Positions 1,200-31,940 of a stretch of 57,992 nucleotides of DNA are shown here, piece after piece. Numbering within the stretch: the first letter of the stretch is position 1; each line of letters opens with the position of its first letter. Made by a program: the position numbers and the translations under genes. Under the pieces are notes generated by a model. That model did not search any database, was not told the origin of the DNA, and saw only the letters and a program-made list of their open reading frames with translations. This DNA is from a virus (taxonomy: Duplodnaviria; Caudoviricetes). The DNA lies in IMG/VR virus record IMGVR_UViG_3300031754_000006, positions 1-57,992 of that record; one strand, written 5' to 3'.

Positions 1200-2808
1200 T
1201 GTGTACTCCTGAGACGATATTAGAGCTAACGATCCCGCCCACGCCCACCAAACGCGCGCCATCAGTCGCAATAGAGAAAAAATCCTCTGTGGTGGTGCTG
1301 ACCGTAGCCCATGCCCCTACCCCATTCGCATTCGTGAACGTCCCCGCCGTGCCGTTCATGACGAATAGACTAGCGACCGAATCCCATACCGCCGAATCCG
1401 GCACCACACCGATCGCTGACTGCGTATTGTAGGTGAGCCCATCCGTCGATAGGATGGCATTACCCGATACGTCCGAGACGATGACCCGTGAGCCGTTCGT
1501 CACAAGCGAAGACCCGTCCAGGTTGGCCGGTGGCGTGTGCGCAGTCCAGGTCACTCCGGTAGGCGAGCTATAGATATTCCCCACCCCACTCGGGGCAATG
1601 ACGAACAGAGACAGCCCGGAGGCCCACACCGCGCCTGAGAATGCTCCGCTCCCGCTCGTAAGCCGTGCTGTCCAGGTTGCCCCGTCCGTAGACGTCCAGG
1701 TTTTCCCATTGCCATAGCCGGCTGCGACAAAAGTCGAGTTGCCCCATGCAATGGCTGCTGAGCCACTGCCGCCCGCACCCGGGCCCGCATGCGATGTCCA
1801 CGTAACGCCATCCGTGCTTGTCGCGCTGAGCCCGTTAGAGCTGGCCACAACCTCTCCACCGGCCACCAGAAGCGCCCCACTCCAGGCTAGGGACGTCCAG
1901 TTACCCGCAGGCATCGTGCGTGCCGTCCAGGTCACCCCATCCGGCGATGTCGCCGCTAGCCCATTCCCCGACCCATCTGTACCTATCGATACGAACAGGC
2001 TGAGGCTCGACGCCCAAACCACCGCGTTATACGTGTCAGCGCTCGTTCCAGGCATATTGTGATCTGCCCAGTAAGCGCTCGTATATGTAAATCCGTTGTG
2101 TAACGTTCCAGGCAGCGCCCCTGGATTCGTTACCACCACGTCCACCGCGCCCACCGTATGCGCTGGACTCGTTACCGCAATCGTGGTGCTAGTGATCGTC
2201 CCAGCCGTGGCTGCTGTACCTCCAAATGTAACCGTAGCTCCCGCTAGAAAATTAGTGCCCGTGATAGTGGTGGACGTACCACCTGCGATCGGCCCGTTAT
2301 TCGGCGACAGGCTGATCGGATTCGCAGTAGGCGCAGACGCATCGAACAGAATGGACGTCGTGGCTGGCGAGTTAGGCACCGGAAACTGATAAGGGAAGTA
2401 ATACAGTCCCGATCCGATCTCGGTAAACCCTGGCTGTGTCAGGCTCGCCAGCGTATTGAGGTCATCGTATAGCAAGAACTGCGGCGCAATCCCGATAGCC
2501 GCGTCCCCGAAATCCACCACTTCGCGGATCGCACCTGTATTCGTATTGATCGGCTGCGGAGTGACCACCAAAGGAATGCTTACACCGCCTGCAGTGACCT
2601 TTAGGACAACTCTGGTTGTCTGGGGCGAGCTGGACAGCGGAAAGTTGATATCGAAGTAATAGATCCCGTCCGCAACTTCATACACCACCGGCTGCGTCAG
2701 GCTTATAAGCGTGTCAAGGTCTTTGTATTGCAGGAACGTAGGCAGCAGACCCGTATTCATGGGCCCGAAATCCACCACCTGCCTACCCTGTGTGCGGAAT
2801 TGGACCAT
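1192..2808 (-). CDS. virion adhesin / tail appendage: duplicated N-terminal module, IPT/TIG Ig-like domain, beta-propeller
   Basis: SLSPNNGPIAGGTSTTITGTNF...VDVVVTNP (IPT/TIG); repeated S-x-D-G-x-T-W Asp-box motifs. Confidence 0.75.
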   Translation of the reverse strand: MVQFRTQGRQVVDFGPMNTGLLPTFLQYKDLDTLISLTQPVVYEVADGIYYFDINFPLSSSPQTTRVVLKVTAGGVSIPLVVTPQPINTNTGAIREVVDFGDAAIGIAPQFLLYDDLNTLASLTQPGFTEIGSGLYYFPYQFPVPNSPATTSILFDASAPTANPISLSPNNGPIAGGTSTTITGTNFLAGATVTFGGTAATAGTITSTTIAVTSPAHTVGAVDVVVTNPGALPGTLHNGFTYTSAYWADHNMPGTSADTYNAVVWASSLSLFVSIGTDGSGNGLAATSPDGVTWTARTMPAGNWTSLAWSGALLVAGGEVVASSNGLSATSTDGVTWTSHAGPGAGGSGSAAIAWGNSTFVAAGYGNGKTWTSTDGATWTARLTSGSGAFSGAVWASGLSLFVIAPSGVGNIYSSPTGVTWTAHTPPANLDGSSLVTNGSRVIVSDVSGNAILSTDGLTYNTQSAIGVVPDSAVWDSVASLFVMNGTAGTFTNANGVGAWATVSTTTEDFFSIATDGARLVGVGGIVSSNIVSGVHIG

Positions 2809-3047
2809 TAGAACGTCGGCGCTGCGAACCCAGTGAGATAAAAAACCCCAAAGTCAGTCGTTACCTTCAAATATCCCGCCACAGTCCCCGAGGGCAGCGC
2901 CGTAACGAACGTGTCCGCATTCACAACCTGCTTAAACGCTGCTTCAATGACCGGAAACGCCCCTGACTGCACCTGCGTGATGTCCTTAGCCAGTCCAGGC
3001 ACGTCCTTAGCCACGCTTAATACACGCGGTAGCTTCTTCACGGCCAA
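2808..3047 (-). CDS. small virion-module protein
   Basis: ORF overlapping both neighbours in structural operon. Confidence 0.55.
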   Translation of the reverse strand: MAVKKLPRVLSVAKDVPGLAKDITQVQSGAFPVIEAAFKQVVNADTFVTALPSGTVAGYLKVTTDFGVFYLTGFAAPTF

Positions 3048-3835
3048 CTCCCACCGCCAAGACCGCCACCCCAGGGGCCGCCCTGCCCAAAAGCGCCATT
3101 ACCGGATGTCTCAGAGACCGTATTCGGCTCCCCCATATCCCGGTTCTGCGCTTCCTTCTCCAGCCGCTCCTTGATCTCCAGCTTCCGAGCTGCAAACAGC
3201 ATCGGATCCCGCTCTTGCTTGCCTAGGCACTTAATGCAGGCATCGATAATCACGTACTCAAGCCACCCGTTCCAGTCACTGGCCACATCTTGGTCGTTTA
3301 CCAGCGGCAGGAGTTTGGGTGCATACCGCATCTGAATCACCAAGCCAGCGCTTGGCGTGGGCGTAAACATGATGTTCGTACCCACATATGCATATCGCGG
3401 GTAGAAAAACGGGCTGCCGAAAGTCAAATAACCGGGATAGTTATACCGATTCTTCTCAGGCAGGTTGAACTTGCGCAGCGTGACCGGGCTAAACGGCGTC
3501 GCAAACGGCCCCTGTATGATCTCCACCAGCTGCCCCTTAAAGAACGCAGGGGCATTCACGTAGAGAAAGCCATCGGGCAACGGATACAGGTTGTCTGTAC
3601 CGTTGAGCGGTATCGTTGCCTGCGCTGTGTAGTAATCCTCGAAGCGCAGCGTGAGGAGCCCATACAGCTCAAAACGGCTCTGATTGATATACCGGGTCAG
3701 CTCAGAGTCAGAGATGTGCGGATCGTTCTCAATATCGCATTCTTGCCGCACGGTGGTTCGCAGGCTGATGAGCGTTTGAGGCCCACCAGCCTGCGAATAC
3801 ACCGGATCAGACGGGATGACAGCCGAGACTGTCAC
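3038..3835 (-). CDS. head-tail adaptor / tail tubular protein A-like
   Basis: 265 aa downstream of capsid genes; helical N-terminus (ISDSELTRYINQS), Y-x-LP-x-GF and F-x-P-x-P motifs. Confidence 0.6.
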   Translation of the reverse strand: MTVSAVIPSDPVYSQAGGPQTLISLRTTVRQECDIENDPHISDSELTRYINQSRFELYGLLTLRFEDYYTAQATIPLNGTDNLYPLPDGFLYVNAPAFFKGQLVEIIQGPFATPFSPVTLRKFNLPEKNRYNYPGYLTFGSPFFYPRYAYVGTNIMFTPTPSAGLVIQMRYAPKLLPLVNDQDVASDWNGWLEYVIIDACIKCLGKQERDPMLFAARKLEIKERLEKEAQNRDMGEPNTVSETSGNGAFGQGGPWGGGLGGGSWP

Positions 3836-4327
3836 TTAGCCCCCTTGGCCGCCCTCGTCGCCGTCAGGCTCCCCGCCCGAATCAGCAATCATGAAAAACG
3901 CCTTGAGCGCCTGAGCCACCTTCTCTGCATTCCCGCCCTTCATGCCCATAGCTTCCATCACGCCCTGGGCGGCTACCTTCTCCTGCGGGCTGCACTCGTA
4001 GTCCTCTCCAGCCTCTCCGCCCTCTGCCATGGCCTGAGGCCCCTTGCTTGGCTTGGGAAGGGGGAACGGCACGTGTCCCCCCTGTGCGAGCGGCTGGTAG
4101 TCGAACGGGAAGCCCACAGTATCGTCCTCACCCGGTCCCACCGGGCTCGGAGCCCACTTCGGCCATGCATATCCGCCCCGGAATAGGGCCTGATAGTTAC
4201 TCGCCACCTTGCCGCCCCCAAACAGAGGCTGTGCATCGGTTGGCTTTGCACCCTCGTCGGTCAGGCCAGGGCGCTTCTGCACATAGCGGGGAGAGAGACC
4301 AAAGCCATTTGGATAAGATCGTGGCAT
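3836..4327 (-). CDS. hypothetical virion-associated protein with repeated x-x-G-G motifs
   Basis: FGGG, FRGG, LAQGG, MAEGG; ends GGQGG; GGAG RBS. Confidence 0.65.
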   Translation of the reverse strand: MPRSYPNGFGLSPRYVQKRPGLTDEGAKPTDAQPLFGGGKVASNYQALFRGGYAWPKWAPSPVGPGEDDTVGFPFDYQPLAQGGHVPFPLPKPSKGPQAMAEGGEAGEDYECSPQEKVAAQGVMEAMGMKGGNAEKVAQALKAFFMIADSGGEPDGDEGGQGG

Positions 4328-14859: not shown

Positions 14860-14895
14860 GCCCCTTACACATGTGCAGTACCATATGTAAGGGGC
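14860..14895 (-). terminator. hairpin closing array 2
   Basis: GCCCCTTACA (14860-14869) / TGTAAGGGGC (14886-14895), followed by TTT on minus strand. Confidence 0.65.
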
Positions 14896-15298
14896 GCCTT
14901 GCTTTACTCGCCCTTGCACGTCCGCTCCGGGCCTTGCCTGCCTTGCCCATCCCCGCTTTACCACCCCTGACCTTGCCTGACCTCACCTGACCTTGCCTGC
15001 TGCGTTTAGCCTGTCCCTACCAAGCCAACCCAAGCCGGGCCAAGCCTGCTCTGCTACGCCTGTCCTTGCCCCTCCAGACCTTTCCTTACGCTGCCTGCCT
15101 TGCCTGCACTACCACGCCGATCCATGCCTAGCCGATCCGCGCCTTGCCTGCTCTGCCGTCCCGAGTTTGGCCGTTCCATTCTCGGCTCTGCCTGCATTGC
15201 CAGCCCTGTCCAAGCCTCTCCACTCACAGCCTCGCCTGCTTAGCCCAGCCTATCCGTACCTAACCGATCTCGACTTTGCCTGCCTTGCCCCACTGCTA
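14893..15298 (-). ncRNA. orphan GGN-NN pentamer array (candidate guide-RNA array 2)
   Basis: Delimiters (CCTGC on +) start at 15279, 15235, 15191, 15147, 15103, 15094, 15045, 14996, 14937; spacings 44,44,44,44,9,49,49,59, all 5n+4. Confidence 0.8.
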
Positions 15299-22731: not shown

Positions 22732-22994
22732 AGCTGGAGACCATCCAGGCCATCTGCGAGGTGGCCAACGAAGCCGAGGCCCATGCTGTCCTGGACAGCT
22801 ACTGGAACGACCTCCAGTGCCTCGGGGGCCGTGTGCTGCCCCCTGCCTTTGGCCGCCCTGAGTGGCGAGTGCAAGTCTTCTTCCCGGCCGAGGGCGTGCC
22901 CAAGGAGCTGCCCCTCCCTGCCGGTGTAACCCGCCTCACCATCCCTGCCGCCCTGCGGCGCATCTACGGAATCTTGGAGGTCGTGTGTCCGTGA
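22728..22994 (+). CDS. hypothetical protein
   Basis: ATGA overlap. Confidence 0.55.
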   Translation: MKLETIQAICEVANEAEAHAVLDSYWNDLQCLGGRVLPPAFGRPEWRVQVFFPAEGVPKELPLPAGVTRLTIPAALRRIYGILEVVCP

Positions 22995-23206
22995 GCGAGC
23001 CCAGCAAATTCGATATGTGCGTCTGCGGCTGGACTCGGGTGCAGCACTGCGCCAAGGAGCCCCATCCCTGCTCGCACACGGTCTGTCGCTGTAAGGGATT
23101 CACACTCGCAAAGGGCAGTAATTACGATCTTACCGTCACTGGCGCGGTACGCAATAACCGCGACCTAGAAAATGCATCCTATCACACGCACGGCGGCTAT
23201 CACTAA
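22991..23206 (+). CDS. Cys/His-rich mini-protein, paralogue 1
   Basis: FDMCVCGWTRVQHCAKEPHPCSHTVCRCKGF; GTG 22991. Confidence 0.65.
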   Translation: MSEPSKFDMCVCGWTRVQHCAKEPHPCSHTVCRCKGFTLAKGSNYDLTVTGAVRNNRDLENASYHTHGGYH

Positions 23207-23661: not shown

Positions 23662-24369
23662 ATGGCATTCGCAGCTAAGCAAAAGGTCGAGATTACTCCC
23701 CCCAATCTCCAGCTAGTCAAGTTCCGGATCATCGGCACTAGTCCACTCGTCCAAAACAAGTTCAGCAGCCGCGCCCTGGAGGCCATGGCCGCCGATCAGC
23801 GCCTCGGCTCCGCCGCCGTGAAGCGCAAGAAGCGCGAGCCCAAGGACTTCGACCTGGCCGTCAAGGAGGCCACCCACTACGCCGATGCCGGCTGGTGCGG
23901 CCTCCCGGCCTCGGCCTTCCGCACGGGCCTCATCTCCACTTGCCGCCTCCTGGGTTTTCCGATGACTTTGGCCAAATTATCGGTATTTGTCGTCGCCGAT
24001 GGCTACGAGCGCGACAGATTCGGAGTGACGCCACTCGTCCGGATCACCAAGGGCAAGCCCGAGCGCACTGACTTTGCCGTGCGCAACGCCACGGGCGTAG
24101 CCGATATCCGCCCCCGCCCCATGTGGCCCGAAGGCTGGGAGGCGGTCATCTCCATTCGCTTCGACGCTGATCAGTTCACCGTGCAGGACGTGACCAACCT
24201 GCTATCCCGCATGGGCGAGCAGGTGGGGATCGGCGCGGGGCGGCACGACTCCAAGGACTCGGCCGGCATGGGCTGGGGCTGCTTCCGGATCGCCGATACC
24301 GTGGGCGGGGAGGCGCCTACCAAGAAGACCAGGGCGCCCAAGGAAGCAGTACAGGAGGAGGTTGGCTAA
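23662..24369 (+). CDS. stand-alone Cas7/RAMP-like RNA-binding protein (Vipr-like)
   Basis: N-terminal strand FRIIGTSPL, PASAFRTGL (RAMP P-x-S-x-x-K/R-G-like), C-terminal Gly-rich loop GIGAGR...GMGWGCF; no other cas genes. Confidence 0.75.
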   Translation: MAFAAKQKVEITPPNLQLVKFRIIGTSPLVQNKFSSRALEAMAADQRLGSAAVKRKKREPKDFDLAVKEATHYADAGWCGLPASAFRTGLISTCRLLGFPMTLAKLSVFVVADGYERDRFGVTPLVRITKGKPERTDFAVRNATGVADIRPRPMWPEGWEAVISIRFDADQFTVQDVTNLLSRMGEQVGIGAGRHDSKDSAGMGWGCFRIADTVGGEAPTKKTRAPKEAVQEEVG

Positions 24370-24843
24370 ATGCCAAGCGCAGCAGCCAAGCGGCTCAAGC
24401 GGGCCCGTACCCAGTCCATCCATGATGAGCTGGCCAACCTTTACCGATTGCATGGAGGTCTCAAGCCCGACGTGATCGTTGCCTGGGCTAAGAATAACCC
24501 TGCCAGCATCCTGCATTCTAAGTTTACGTGGGATGACAGTGAGGCTGCCAAGTCTTACCGCCTTTGGCAGGCGCGGCAGATTATCACAGAAGTAGAGGTG
24601 CAATACCCGGACGGCCATATACGGCGTGTGTATGTTTCGCCGATGGAGTCTCGCGGCACCCGAGGATATGCGACCTTGGTTGACGTTTTGTCCGATGAGG
24701 AGCGGCGAATTCAATATCTGCAACAGGCATATTCTGAGCTGGAGCGCACCGCCGCAAAATATCAGGACCTTGTGGAATTTGCTGGAGTCCGCAGGGCGAT
24801 TCGGGCTGCCGGCAGGAAACTGCCGAAGGCCAACAAGGAGTAG
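24370..24843 (+). CDS. accessory protein of the RAMP-array locus
   Basis: LHSKFTWDDSEAAKSYRLWQARQII motif; abuts the RAMP stop, and its own stop begins the array. Confidence 0.7.
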   Translation: MPSAAAKRLKRARTQSIHDELANLYRLHGGLKPDVIVAWAKNNPASILHSKFTWDDSEAAKSYRLWQARQIITEVEVQYPDGHIRRVYVSPMESRGTRGYATLVDVLSDEERRIQYLQQAYSELERTAAKYQDLVEFAGVRRAIRAAGRKLPKANKE

Positions 24844-25680
24844 CAGTAGGGGCAAGGTTGAGCTGCGCAGGCTAGGCGCGGAGAAGTCTGGTGAGGACGA
24901 GTGTGGAGCAGCGCGGTCGGGTTAGGCCAAGCAGGCGAGGAATGGACCGGTAACGAGAGGCAGAGATAAGCATGGCAGGTGGAGCAAGGACGTGTAAAGC
25001 CCGGGGCGGGCTGGCACGGCAGGCTGAACCTGGATAGGGTGGGCGAGGTGTGGTCGAGCCTGGACAAGCAGGCGTAGCATCGTACGGGTCGGCAAGGATA
25101 GGCGAGGCCAAGCAGGCCGGGAGTGGTAAGGCTCGCAAGGGCAGGGCTGCGCTGCGCGCGGAAGAGCAGGCAGAGCTAGGATTTGTACGGCATGGAGAGG
25201 CCCGGAGAAGCAAAGCAGGCAAGGAGCGGTAAGGGTCGGAGCCGTTAGGCAGAGCAGGCTTGGCTCGGGTCGGCTTGGGCAGGGTCGGAGCGGCTGGGCA
25301 ATTCAATGCAGGTTAAGCGTGGTGAAGCAGAGGGAGGCAAGGACTGGAACGGGATGGCTGAGCAATGCAGGCACGGACAGGTGAGGTATGGCACGGCACG
25401 GCACGCTAGGGCAAAGCAGGCACGGACAGGACCGGTAAGGTATGGAGCGGCACGTCGAGGCAAAGCAGGTCGAGCTTGGACCGGGATGGCGCGGTCAGGT
25501 GAAGCGTGGCGGGGCCAGGTCTGGCAGGCGTAGCAAGCAGTAAAGGGCAAGGCCAGGAGTGGACGCGATAGGCCAGGTGCAGCAGGCGCGGATCGGCAAA
25601 GCAGAGTGCGGGTCGGACGAGCACGGCAGGCGCGGATAGGTAAGGAAGAGGTCGGCGAGGGGAAGCACAGCAGGCTAAGG
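24841..25680 (+). ncRNA. GGN-NN pentamer array (candidate guide-RNA array 1)
   Basis: 17 GCAGG(C/T) delimiters from 24867 to 25670; spacings 64,44,44,49,44,54,49,39,54,59,49,49,59,58,44,44 (15/16 are 5n+4). Confidence 0.85.
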
Positions 25681-25683
25681 AAT

Positions 25684-25760
25684 CCGTCAGCGCAATTGTG
25701 CATTGACGGCCAGGGGAGTCCGTAAACGACGATATCGCCCCGTAGCGGACTCCCCGCTTT
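25684..25760 (+). terminator. double hairpin closing array 1
   Basis: CCGTCA/TGACGG (25684-25709) and GGGGAGTCCG/CGGACTCCCC (25713-25755), then GCTTT. Confidence 0.6.
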
Positions 25761-25775
25761 ACCAGGAAGAAACCG

Positions 25776-26048
25776 ATGGCAGATAAAAAGCTTACCCCCT
25801 TCGATATGTGCGAGTGCGGTTGGACGCGCGTCCAGCACTGCGCCAGGGCTCCGCATCGGTGTACGCACCCGGGATGCTATTGCGTGGCGTTCAAGCTCTC
25901 TTCTGAGCCTGAACTTGACCGGCTGGATGAAGCCATCCGCACCACAAAGGCCCTGGCGCGGGCGCGGTTCTTTCCTGGGCTCGGACTGCGCGCAGATAGT
26001 ATCGATTACTTCATCAAGTGCGGTATTGAGCCCCTGGAGGAAAGCTAG
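25776..26048 (+). CDS. Cys/His-rich mini-protein, paralogue 2
   Basis: FDMCECGWTRVQHCARAPHRCTHPGCYCVAF. Confidence 0.7.
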   Translation: MADKKLTPFDMCECGWTRVQHCARAPHRCTHPGCYCVAFKLSSEPELDRLDEAIRTTKALARARFFPGLGLRADSIDYFIKCGIEPLEES

Positions 26049-26050
26049 CC

Positions 26051-26305
26051 ATGGCCGAAAGCCCATTTGATATGTGTCTCTGTGGCTGGAGCAGGATCCA
26101 GCACTGCGCTACCCCTCCGCATCCCTGCACACATGAGCGCTGTTGGTGTAAGGCATTTTGCTTCGCCCCCAATCACCCCCCCAAAGTTTCGGCTATCAAG
26201 GATGAGATGGATATGGCAGGCGCCAGGTTTTTTGACAGGTTTGGGTTGTACAGCGCTCCAGACGCAAAAACGCTGATCGCGCAAGGATTTACGCCTAAAG
26301 ACTAA
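26051..26305 (+). CDS. Cys/His-rich mini-protein, paralogue 3
   Basis: FDMCLCGWSRIQHCATPPHPCTHERCWCKAF. Confidence 0.7.
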   Translation: MAESPFDMCLCGWSRIQHCATPPHPCTHERCWCKAFCFAPNHPPKVSAIKDEMDMAGARFFDRFGLYSAPDAKTLIAQGFTPKD

Positions 26306-26404
26306 TCAACTTGCCGCCCCTTTCCCAGGGGGGTGGCCCGGGTGGCAGGTTAATTCCTCCGGATGACGCCTGCTGCCCGGTTTTACCTACGGAGTAACCG
26401 AACG

Positions 26405-26674
26405 ATGAGCAAAGATCGCAAAGACACCGATGACCCGAGGGCATCCGATCTGTGCGCCGTGTGTCTGGGATCAGCCGACAATAACGGCGCCCCCAGGTGG
26501 CGTCACTGCGCCAAGCCTCCCCATAAGTGCAGCGTTTGTGACGTATGCCCAGGATTCCAGTACGGCGGCCGAGCACAGGCTATCCATCGCGCGCGGTGGG
26601 CCGAACACGTAGAGCATTACGTGGAGAAGGGCCATCCCCGCGAACAGGTCGAGTTGGCCATCAAAGGTGAATAA
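26405..26674 (+). CDS. Cys/His-rich mini-protein, divergent paralogue 4
   Basis: DLCAVC...RHCAKPPHKCSVCDVCPGF; ATG 26405 with GGAG. Confidence 0.6.
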   Translation: MSKDRKDTDDPRASDLCAVCLGSADNNGAPRWRHCAKPPHKCSVCDVCPGFQYGGRAQAIHRARWAEHVEHYVEKGHPREQVELAIKGE

Positions 26675-26870
26675 CATGCGCCTATCTGAGACCAAGCCGG
26701 AAGACGATCCCGGGCTGGCCATGCCAAAGGGGCAGGAGCCCCACAAAACGGACGTTTGTGAGTGTACCGGCTTTAGGGATGAGCACTGCCTAGAAAAACC
26801 ACATCCGTGTCCTTGTGGCTGTAAGGCATTTAGATTTAGATCGAGATGGATAACCTTTGAAGGTGAGTGA
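26667..26870 (+). CDS. Cys/His-rich mini-protein, paralogue 5
   Basis: DVCECTGFRDEHCLEKPHPCPCGCKAF. Confidence 0.6.
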   Translation: MNNMRLSETKPEDDPGLAMPKGQEPHKTDVCECTGFRDEHCLEKPHPCPCGCKAFRFRSRWITFEGE

Positions 26871-31826: not shown

Positions 31827-31901
31827 GACCCATGTAGCTCAACGGTAAAGCCCAGCCCGCCTTCAAGCTGGAGACTGCGGGTTCAAGTCCCGCCGTGGGC
31901 C
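31827..31901 (+). tRNA. aberrant tRNA-like element (10-nt anticodon loop, possibly Glu-TTC derived)
   Basis: acceptor ACCCATG/CGTGGGC, TAGCTCAA.GGTA D-arm, CCAGC/GCTGG stem, GCGGG-TTCAAGT-CCCGC T-arm; no encoded CCA. Confidence 0.6.
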
Positions 31902-31940
31902 CTTCACACGCAACACGCGGCGCATTTAAGGAGGCACCAA

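What the first reader, a model, noticed from the sequence alone, without database searches (positions are those of the whole stretch)
24841..25680. Array grammar: GCA + n x (RGN-NN) + 1 nt, n = 7-12
Seen: delimiters at 24867, 24931, 24975, 25019, 25068, 25112, 25166, 25215, 25254, 25308, 25367, 25416, 25465, 25524, 25582, 25626, 25670. Example: GCA GGCGT AGCAT CGTAC GGGTC GGCAA GGATA GGCGA GGCCA A. Pentamer position 2 is almost always G, position 1 mostly G or A, position 3 any base (GGA is frequent, so looser than GGY), and positions 4-5 are free. Units at 25367 and 25416 are related, suggesting growth by duplication and pentamer slippage rather than spacer acquisition.
Basis: seen in the sequence. 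Interest (0 to 1): 0.85.

Follow-up and report, generated by a model that had tools for sequence, protein, structure and literature searches.

The report
Phage VIPR guide-RNA array, staggered type
The pentamer-patterned stretch is a real non-coding array, and it fits the recently described phage VIPR system, in which a small Cas7-like protein reads five-base repeats as guides to silence rival phages. It is therefore a new example of a known kind, not a new kind of element.

Summary
All 17 GCAGG delimiters sit at the listed positions. 15 of 16 intervals equal 4 mod 5. G autocorrelates at lags 5, 10 and 15 and not at lag 3.

A second array with the same grammar lies on the minus strand at 14897-15283 (8 of 8 intervals). 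The window is a whole 58-kb tailed-phage contig.

The gene just upstream (23662-24369) folds as a Cas7/Csm3-type RAMP. Its family profile has 'SUSP1 Vipr protein' as its best PDB match. Homologues of it carry period-5 G arrays in 100 of 111 fetched loci.

This matches VIPR systems (bioRxiv 10.64898/2026.04.26.720920): Vipr plus an accessory gene plus vrRNAs made of GGY/NN pentamers. Read as x-NN-R-G, each unit is a multiple of 5 nt and shares one G with the next unit. That is the preprint's 'staggered array with 1-nt overlap'.

Not shown here: transcription, processing or natural targets. Closely related phages keep the register but swap whole units.

Verdict: a new member of a known kind, of moderate interest.

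The parts
23662..24369 (+). vipr: 235-aa RAMP (Cas7/Csm3-like) protein that would coat the pentamer repeats
   Evidence: AlphaFold model has pLDDT 83.1. Foldseek against PDB gives 111 matches at E<=0.001; the top ones are Csm3/Cas7 chains (E 2.4e-6, prob 1.00). The family profile's best PDB hit is 36pp_D 'SUSP1 Vipr protein', E 0.0017. Hits phrog_4652, unknown function. No Pfam family.
24370..24843 (+). Candidate vap (vipr-accessory protein), 157 aa, function unknown
   Evidence: Found beside a vipr homologue in 13 of 14 loci fetched with it; the 14th locus is cut on that side. The same pair occurs in Mycobacterium and Gordonia phages and in Cyanophage Cy-LDV1. Model pLDDT 92.7. No Foldseek match at E<=0.001. 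VIA-align best Z is 7.0; residues 6-108 weakly resemble winged-helix/LOTUS-type domains, which is inconclusive.
24844..24866 (+). Leader between the vap stop codon and the first GCAGG
   Evidence: Shares TAGCAGT(A)GGGGCAAGG with the start of array 2.
24867..25674 (+). Array 1: 16 putative vrRNA units (8-13 pentamers each) plus a closing GCAGG
25684..25763 (+). Two hairpins followed by GCUUUACC; possible transcript end
   Evidence: Fold energy -41.9 kcal/mol, z -3.9 against shuffles. Not called by the consensus terminator scan.
14897..15283 (-). Array 2: 8-9 units with the same grammar, 9.5 kb from vipr and on the opposite strand
   Evidence: 8 of 8 GCAGG intervals equal 4 mod 5. G autocorrelation is 0.45, 0.40 and 0.36 at lags 5, 10 and 15. 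It follows a 68-aa ORF (phrog_11928) and a RusA-like gene.
14860..14895 (-). 14-bp hairpin followed by CUUUAC after array 2
   Evidence: Fold energy -37.7 kcal/mol, z -3.0. Not called by the terminator scan.

Best explanation
This is a VIPR (Viral Interference Programmable Repeat) locus of a soil tailed phage.

The components are vipr (23662-24369), a candidate accessory gene (24370-24843), and two arrays of guide RNAs (vrRNAs).

By analogy with the SUSP1 and P. fulva systems studied in the 2026 preprints, the arrays are transcribed. One Vipr protomer binds each pentamer, holding the conserved R-G (and x) bases and exposing the two variable bases. The exposed dinucleotides of 8-13 consecutive repeats pair with double-stranded DNA, skipping every third target base, and this silences genes of competing phages or prophages.

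The arrays here are of the 'staggered' kind. Each unit starts with GCAGG-C, and its pentamer register is 1 nt out of step with the unit before, so neighbouring guides share one G. There is no long tail, ribozyme or repeat between guides.

Shown here: the grammar, the RAMP fold and its link to SUSP1 Vipr, the conserved gene-array association, the strand bias, and the codon-like composition of the variable dinucleotides.

Inferred only: transcription, cutting at or near GCAGG, filament assembly, the 1-nt-skip rule in this clade, and the identity of the targets.
For: (1) Grammar. 15 of 16 and 8 of 8 intervals equal 4 mod 5. Position-specific conservation is shown.

(2) The adjacent protein is a RAMP. 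Foldseek top hits are Csm3/Cas7, E 2.4e-6. The family profile's best PDB hit is SUSP1 Vipr, E 0.0017, aligning the thumb Arg (R138 to R152) and the G-loop Arg (R179 to R194) with invariant residues of this family.

(3) Association. Period-5 G arrays of 160 nt or more lie beside homologues in 14 of 14, 33 of 38 and 53 of 59 loci. 129 arrays are on the vipr strand and 4 on the other.

(4) The -1 register step is family-wide. 336 of 522 phase changes in 52 loci plus the window are -1, against 25% expected if random.

(5) Units per guide. 187 unique GCAGG-delimited units hold 7-17 repeats, with a mode of 10-11. The preprint gives 9-16.

(6) Guide content is private, like spacers. None of the 20 window units reaches 0.8 identity to any of 167 relatives' units; the maximum is 0.76.

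(7) The variable dinucleotides look like codon positions 1-2. Pearson r is 0.45, against -0.27 and -0.31 for the other two frames. Log-likelihoods are -4011.9 against -4132.7 and -4359.1 for 167 relatives' units, and -444.9 against -450.1 and -469.2 for the 20 window units. Units are strand-coherent (z 6.0, 0 of 500 permutations reach it). This fits targets in coding DNA with the wobble base skipped.

(8) The contig is a phage: portal, large terminase, RusA, Gam and Erf.

(9) Literature. VIPR, its variant repeat consensuses (NNNGG, YNNNG, NNNNG) and staggered arrays with 1-nt overlap are described in 10.64898/2026.04.26.720920.
Against: No RNA data. The only run holding this DNA is a DNA run of a soil metagenome.

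No natural target was found (detail under Tried and rejected).

The repeat is looser than the published GGY. x is a pyrimidine in 61-69% of repeats and the first G is A in 20-24%. Relatives show 84% pyrimidine and 86% G.

The Trp that stacks on G2 in SUSP1 Vipr (W178) aligns with a Gly here, so base recognition may differ.

Sequence similarity to SUSP1 Vipr is marginal (E 0.0017 over 54 residues), and tblastn of the protein against phage records did not reach SUSP1.

The preprint states that staggered arrays were not among the architectures confirmed by small-RNA sequencing.

The codon-frame test partly reflects base composition. The variable dinucleotides are less GC-rich than wobble positions of a 60% GC genome. 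Strand coherence was also high for a second frame (z 5.1).
Confidence: 0.9

Rival explanations
1. The arrays, or at least the remote array 2, are not guides for this phage's own offence. They would be decoy or 'solo' vrRNAs that load onto a rival phage's Vipr and redirect it, as described for satellite-encoded vrRNAs.
For: Array 2 lies 9.5 kb from vipr on the opposite strand, in a different gene neighbourhood. Solo vrRNAs that redirect another element's Vipr are reported in 10.64898/2026.10.15.759431 (abstract).
Against: Array 2 shares the leader, the GCAGG-C unit start, the composition and the closing hairpin-CUUUAC with array 1. That points to the same cognate protein. No targets are known for either array.
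Confidence: 0.06
2. The array is a protein sponge or scaffold RNA for another multimeric RNA-binding protein, in the manner of CsrB/RsmZ or TRAP-type repeats. Repeated GG motifs would titrate a host regulator.
For: The array is G-rich (44% G) with many GGA and GGC motifs at a 5-nt spacing. The TRAP and Csr analogies are recalled, not tested.
Against: No Rfam family matches at gathering score, and only noise appears at E<=10. The strict 5n-1 unit rule and the hypervariable dinucleotides have no role in a sponge. The array travels with a RAMP gene in 100 of 111 loci.
Confidence: 0.02
3. The array is a type III toxin-antitoxin-like RNA cut by the 157-aa protein acting as an endoribonuclease.
For: In many relatives the array lies directly upstream of the 157-aa gene. 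There is a weak phmmer hit to HigB-2 toxin, E 0.2.
Against: The units are not near-identical repeats; median pair identity is 0.60. The model is mostly helical, with no RelE or ToxN-like match in Foldseek or VIA-align. No Pfam family is found.
Confidence: 0.02
4. The element works at the DNA level: G-quadruplex or R-loop-forming DNA, a replication origin, or an array of Chi-like sites. The G-rich strand would act without any guide function.
For: There is strong local GC skew (+0.19 at 24-26 kb). The two arrays face outward in opposite directions.
Against: This does not explain the 5n-1 punctuation, the free dinucleotides with codon-like composition, or the same-strand linkage to a RAMP gene.
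Confidence: 0.02

Closest known systems
VIPR 'staggered vrRNA arrays' (bioRxiv 10.64898/2026.04.26.720920, legend of fig. S18)
   Same: A phage-borne Vipr gene sits beside arrays in which the end of one vrRNA is the start of the next, with a 1-nt overlap, and no tail or ribozyme lies between guides. Here every unit is a multiple of 5 nt when the shared G is counted.
   Different: I saw only the legend and one sentence of text, not the figure or its locus. I therefore cannot say whether the GCAGG-C start, the CA-N-R-G end, the leader or the closing hairpin are already described. The preprint did not confirm this architecture by small-RNA sequencing.
Type II VIPR of Escherichia phage SUSP1 and the Pseudomonas fulva prophage (same preprint; cryo-EM in 10.64898/2026.04.26.720927)
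   Same: A small RAMP protein, an accessory gene, and vrRNAs of 9-16 pentamer repeats with fixed GG(Y) and free NN. There is a profile-level hit to SUSP1 Vipr.
   Different: SUSP1 vrRNAs are about 100 nt, separate, and end in a conserved pseudoknot tail; here units of 40-65 nt abut. The Y position is relaxed and the first G is often A. W178 of SUSP1 Vipr is not conserved at the aligned position. The accessory protein is a different, unnamed family (phrog_15946).
Class 1 CRISPR-Cas backbone (Cas7/Csm3 on crRNA)
   Same: Same protein fold. One protomer binds per fixed number of RNA bases. Arrays carry variable guide content that differs between near-identical strains.
   Different: The period is 5, not 6. 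Guide information is spread over dinucleotides inside the repeats rather than held in a contiguous spacer. No 23-50-nt direct repeats are present. The system is encoded by the phage.
Cyanophage Cy-LDV1 (BK059895.1), genes g34-g33
   Same: Its vipr homologue is 56% identical. It is followed by an array, a vap homologue and a second array with GGCAGGC punctuation.
   Different: The arrays are shorter, about 190 and 165 nt. Both genes are annotated as hypothetical proteins in the record.

Membership tests
VIPR system | A Vipr protein: a small single-RRM RAMP with a glycine-rich loop and a thumb | tested here: met
   The model hits Csm3/Cas7 chains, E 2.4e-6, prob 1.00. The profile's best PDB hit is SUSP1 Vipr, E 0.0017. 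The family has an invariant G-rich C-terminal stretch: G189, G193, R194, G202, G204, G206.
VIPR system | vrRNA made of tandem pentamers with fixed GG(Y) and hypervariable NN, 9-16 per RNA | tested here: met
   Over 222 repeats, G is 97% and R is 94% at the fixed positions, and entropy at NN is 1.87-1.98 bits. There are 8-13 repeats per unit in the window and 7-17 in 187 units overall. One deviation: the Y position is only 61-69% pyrimidine here. The preprint lists NNNGG-type variants.
VIPR system | Array lies next to vipr, in a minimal locus with one accessory (vap) gene | tested here: met
   The order is vipr, 157-aa gene, array, with no gaps. Arrays lie beside homologues in 100 of 111 loci. 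The 157-aa family accompanies vipr in 13 of 14 loci. Whether it equals one of vap1-6 could not be checked.
VIPR system | Staggered architecture: neighbouring vrRNAs overlap by 1 nt | tested here: met
   23 of 24 intervals in the window equal 5n-1. 336 of 522 register changes in relatives are -1. All 12 intervals in L008 conform. The exceptions in L012 and L013 resolve as in-frame GCAGG.
VIPR system | vrRNAs are expressed and co-purify with Vipr | not testable with these tools
   No RNA run holds this DNA.
VIPR system | NN dinucleotides match natural DNA targets under the 1-nt-skip rule | tested here: inconclusive
   Exact scans of 4 of the 23 window units gave 0, 0, 0 and 1 hits in viral contigs and 0 and 1 in metagenomes. 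The single hit is one contig found twice, about what chance predicts (my estimate), and its skipped base falls on codon position 1. A local search with four skip rules showed no enrichment. Indirect support: NN composition fits codon positions 1-2.
CRISPR array | Direct repeats of about 23-50 nt alternating with unique spacers | tested here: not met
   TRF finds only a period-5 run and one period-49 pair. The only recurring word is GCAGG(C).
CsrB/Rsm-type sponge RNAs and other Rfam families | Match to a curated covariance model | tested here: not met
   There is no match at gathering score in the array. At E<=10 only five sub-threshold eukaryotic lncRNA/UTR models appear.
Type III toxin-antitoxin (ToxIN-like) | Near-identical tandem RNA repeats plus a ToxN-type endoribonuclease | tested here: inconclusive
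   The units are dissimilar; median identity is 0.60, so this feature is not met. No ToxN or RelE-like family or fold was seen for the 157-aa protein, but a missing fold match does not exclude one.

The most novel reading that the evidence does not exclude
The one-base register slip is itself the punctuation. A 5-7-nt word (GCAGG-C), placed 4 instead of 5 nt after the previous R-G, ends one Vipr filament and seeds the next. A single long transcript could then be read as 16 guides with no dedicated repeat, tail, ribozyme or processing nuclease.

The arrays also turn over unit by unit while keeping the register. Units are private to each phage while vipr stays 97-98% identical. That implies an unknown, register-aware way of making or acquiring new guides in a system without Cas1.
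Probability: 0.25. Interest if true: 0.7.

Novelty: new member of a known kind. Interest (0 to 1): 0.35.

Why it matters
VIPR was described only in 2026 preprints, and experiments cover mainly the SUSP1 and P. fulva systems.

This contig is a compact natural example of the least-tested architecture, the staggered array. It carries about 24 guides in two arrays on one phage, a looser repeat consensus, and an accessory gene of unknown fold.

The comparative data here add three points:
- The 5-nt register and the -1 step are kept across phyla.
- Guide content changes by whole units between near-identical phages.
- The variable dinucleotides carry a codon position 1-2 signature.

These make two open questions directly testable. 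How are abutting guides delimited without a tail? How do new guides arise?

It does not change what kind of system this is.

Tried and rejected
Coding reading: rejected. There is no period-3 signal (G autocorrelation at lag 3 is -0.16), and the ORFs across the array are on the wrong strand or artefactual.

Rfam: nothing in the array.

My first periodogram printed nothing because the threshold was too high. I repeated it.

Before finding the preprint I considered a TRAP-like or Csr-like sponge, a type III antitoxin, R-loop, G4 or Chi DNA, and a link to the nearby Erf and Gam genes. All were dropped once the RAMP neighbour and the literature were in hand.

Expression: no RNA holder was listed for the stretch. 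One DNA run (soil metagenome) holds it and may be its source.

Natural targets, exact scans. I scanned with 1-nt-skip patterns built from the internal dinucleotides of 4 of the 23 window units:
- Unit 24867 (22 fixed bases): 0 hits in viral contigs and 0 in metagenome contigs.
- Unit 25465 (20 fixed bases): 1 hit in each collection, the same 14,099-nt contig (L015 = L113). It lies in an 82-aa ORF on the minus strand, with the skipped base on codon position 1 rather than the wobble. No other window unit matches that contig above background. One hit is about what chance predicts for 20 fixed bases; this is my own estimate, since the collection sizes were not given.
- Unit 25308: 0 hits.
- Unit 15000: 0 hits.

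Exact matching is much stricter than the 80% or higher criterion of the preprint, so these blanks say little.

Natural targets, local searches. Window units against the window and L001-L014 gave nothing above background at skips of 0-2 nt. The perfect scores at a 3-nt skip were the units matching their own arrays. 167 of 187 unique units (those with at least 7 internal dinucleotides) were searched against the window plus the loci then held, arrays masked, at skips of 0, 1, 2 and 3 nt. Matches of 0.9 or better numbered 3, 2, 5 and 3, so there is no enrichment for the 1-nt rule. No self-target stands above background.

Array comparison between relatives by global alignment gave either identity or unalignable repeats. 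I replaced it with unit-by-unit comparison. In one search in-frame GCAGG were merged, so unit lengths there are multiples of 5 by construction.

Accessory protein:
- phmmer against PDB gave only HigB-2 at E 0.2.
- Foldseek gave nothing at E<=0.001.
- VIA-align wide gave a best Z of 7.0 (Egalitarian N-terminal domain), with several winged-helix/LOTUS-type domains at Z 5.4-5.7 over residues 6-108. This is below the level the tool calls meaningful.
- Pfam found nothing for it or its 23 aligned relatives.
- The protein Atlas found only unnamed viral clusters for Vipr.

Consensus terminator and promoter scans did not call the hairpins after the arrays or any promoter before them.

VIPR type (I-VII) was not assigned. 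Type definitions are in figures and data files I could not see. Searching the preprint text for Mycobacter, Gordonia, cyano, vap2 and vap3 found nothing.

Alignment inputs: A1 used 19 of the 120 listed homologues (of 3696 found) plus 9 locus translations. A2 used all 19 listed proteins plus 5 of 14 locus translations.

Papers and what I saw of each:
- 10.64898/2026.04.26.720920: outline, abstract, Results in full, Discussion, Methods part 1, sections 26 and 27, and passages including the legends of figs S9, S10 and S17-S22. I saw no figures and no supplementary data.
- 10.64898/2026.04.26.720927: outline, abstract and Results part 1.
- 10.64898/2026.10.15.759431: outline, abstract and two passages.
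- 10.64898/2026.10.21.760802: passages found by term search only.

They may already hold this clade, its type, its vap and its staggered-array anatomy.
Full report
**What is there**

The region 24844-25763 is intergenic. It begins right after the stop codon of a 157-aa ORF and ends before a small Cys-rich ORF.

The 16 intervals are 39-64 nt, and 15 of them equal 4 mod 5. The exception is the 58-nt unit at 25524, which contains a single 4-nt step.

G makes up 44% of the strand. Its autocorrelation is 0.38, 0.35 and 0.32 at lags 5, 10 and 15 and -0.16 at lag 3. A flanking CDS shows 0.04 at lag 5.

A grammar motif (GCAGGC followed by four GG at 5-nt spacing) occurs 7 times in the window against 0.01 expected. 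All 7 lie in two places.

The second place is a shorter array on the minus strand, 15283 down to 14897. All 8 of its GCAGG intervals equal 4 mod 5. Both arrays start after a stop codon with TAGCAGT(A)GGGGCAAGG and end in a strong hairpin followed by CUUUAC.

The genome laid for this window is the window itself, a single 57,992-nt contig. It encodes portal, large terminase, RusA, a DNA methyltransferase, Mu Gam and Erf. It is therefore a tailed-phage genome or a large part of one.

**A simpler way to write the grammar**

Read in the frame x-N-N-R-G, each unit is a whole number of pentamers (8-13) if the first G of the next GCAGG is counted as the last G of the unit.

Over 222 repeats the composition is:

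| Position | Composition |
|---|---|
| Last base | G 97% |
| Base before it | G 74%, A 20% |
| The two N positions | near maximal entropy (1.87-1.98 bits) |
| x | C 43%, T 18%, A 20%, G 18% |

In relatives the same frame gives C 70%, T 14% at x and G 86% at the first G (167 units pre-selected for at least 80% R-G repeats).

**The neighbours**

The 235-aa and 157-aa proteins upstream have no Pfam family. They fall in two PHROGs of unknown function.

Using the 157-aa protein to fetch viral loci gave 14 loci. Every one has a period-5 G-rich array directly beside the homologue, and 13 of 14 also carry a homologue of the 235-aa protein; the 14th is truncated.

Fetching with the 235-aa protein, and with its family profile, gave 38 viral loci and 59 loci in named genomes and MAGs of many phyla. 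33 of 38 and 53 of 59 have such an array. Overall 129 arrays lie on the gene's strand and 4 on the other.

The same detector finds nothing else in the 58-kb window or in an unrelated 14-kb contig.

**The protein**

The 235-aa model (pLDDT 83.1) matches Csm3/Cas7-type RAMP chains of type III and type VII CRISPR complexes, with top E 2.4e-6 and prob 1.00.

A profile of 28 family members has PDB chain 36pp_D, named 'SUSP1 Vipr protein', as its best hit (E 0.0017). It aligns the family's invariant R152 and R194 with R138 and R179 of that protein.

**Literature**

A full-text search led to bioRxiv 10.64898/2026.04.26.720920. It describes VIPR systems with these features:
- a small phage-encoded RAMP (Vipr) and an accessory gene (vap);
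- vrRNAs of 9-16 YNNGG repeats whose NN dinucleotides pair with double-stranded DNA while one target base per repeat is skipped, usually the codon wobble base;
- a function in silencing competing phages, satellites and prophages;
- seven types, with variant repeat consensuses (NNNGG, YNNNG, NNNNG) and several array architectures.

Among the architectures are 'staggered arrays with overlapping vrRNAs', in which neighbours overlap by 1 nt. That is exactly the 5n-1 spacing seen here.

The companion cryo-EM preprint shows one protomer per repeat, with the GGY bases held by thumb and G-loop residues. Two later preprints add solo and decoy vrRNAs, and a survey that recovers 99 period-5 clusters, some with non-canonical motifs.

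The staggered architecture was not among those the first preprint confirmed by small-RNA sequencing.

Period 3 does not dominate.

For indels in relatives, the best material is L008, L012 and L013, whose vipr genes are 97.3-97.9% identical in nucleotides. Their arrays keep the grammar. All 12 intervals in L008 are 5n-1, and the odd ones in L012 and L013 are in-frame GCAGG words.

Only 5 of 12, 2 of 12 and 1 of 11 units have a homologue at 80% identity or more in the other array. Of those 8 pairings, 7 show no indel and one shows a single 10-nt indel, that is, two whole pentamers.

A phase tracker run on 52 loci plus the window found that 336 of 522 register changes are -1.

None of the 20 parsed window units resembles any of 167 relatives' units; the maximum identity is 0.76.

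So the register is respected and guide content is private to each phage, as with spacers.

Shuffling pentamer order within units reaches 0.74 on average and 0.78 at most. I therefore cannot call it a duplication with confidence.

**Indirect evidence for guide function**

If the variable dinucleotides match coding DNA with the wobble base skipped, they should look like codon positions 1-2, or their reverse complement. Using 51 long window ORFs as the codon model:

| Test | Frame 1-2 | Frame 2-3 | Frame 3-1 |
|---|---|---|---|
| Pearson r with unit dinucleotides | 0.45 | -0.27 | -0.31 |
| Log-likelihood, 167 relatives' units | -4011.9 | -4132.7 | -4359.1 |
| Log-likelihood, 20 window units | -444.9 | -450.1 | -469.2 |

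The window margin is the same size as for control pseudo-guides drawn from frame 1-2. Units are more strand-coherent than permuted ones (z 6.0, 0 of 500 permutations reach it).

This is supportive but partly a base-composition effect. Strand coherence was also high for frame 2-3 (z 5.1).

**What was not found**

No RNA run holds the stretch.

Exact 1-nt-skip scans for 4 of the 23 units found only one contig, seen in both collections. That is about the chance expectation, and the skipped base falls on codon position 1.

A mismatch-tolerant search of 167 units against all held sequence showed no advantage for the 1-nt rule.

The accessory protein's fold is unresolved, with at best a weak winged-helix-like resemblance.

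**Verdict**

The element is a VIPR locus with two staggered vrRNA arrays, which makes it a new member of a kind described in 2026 preprints.

What it adds is comparative: conservation of the -1 punctuation, unit-wise turnover, a relaxed repeat consensus, and a second remote array.

The mechanism (transcription, delimitation at GCAGG, filament assembly, gapped pairing) is inferred from the studied systems and is not shown for this phage.

Noticed in passing
window 22862-23206, 25776-26048, 26051-26305, 26363-26674, 26667-26870 (+): Five small paralogous Cys/His-rich ORFs sharing a motif like FDMCxCGWxRxQHC...PHxC flank the VIPR module on both sides. The three that were scanned have no Pfam or PHROG family. 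They may be zinc-binding regulators or anti-defence proteins.
   Followed up: partly
window 31828-31902 (+): A tRNA gene (Rfam 40.7 bits) for which ARAGORN gives no amino acid and an odd two-letter anticodon call.
   Followed up: no
window 25524-25581 and 25112-25165 (+): Two imperfect units. The unit at 25524 is 58 nt, with one 4-nt step inside, as if one base had been lost. The unit at 25112 has several repeats without the closing G, and an extra GCAGG at 25141. They may be decaying guides.
   Followed up: partly
L114 (BK059895.1, Cyanophage Cy-LDV1) 2501-4100: A named, published phage carries the same module: vipr homologue g34, an array, vap homologue g33, then a second array before a putative excisionase. 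Both genes are annotated as hypothetical proteins.
   Followed up: yes
Mycobacterium and Gordonia phage records, for example NC_031262.1 32909-33822: 25 Mycobacterium and 5 Gordonia phage records encode adjacent homologues of both the 235-aa and the 157-aa proteins at about 30% identity. I did not check them for arrays.
   Followed up: no
L015 / L113 5166-5194: This is the only exact 1-nt-skip match, 20 of 20 bases, to the unit at 25465 across the viral and metagenome collections. It lies near the 3' end of an 82-aa ORF on the minus strand, but out of the wobble frame, so it is probably chance.
   Followed up: yes
L003 2500-3900; L002 1460-2100: In some relatives arrays flank vipr on both sides, or a small extra ORF sits between two arrays. 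The position of the array relative to vipr and vap is therefore fluid.
   Followed up: partly
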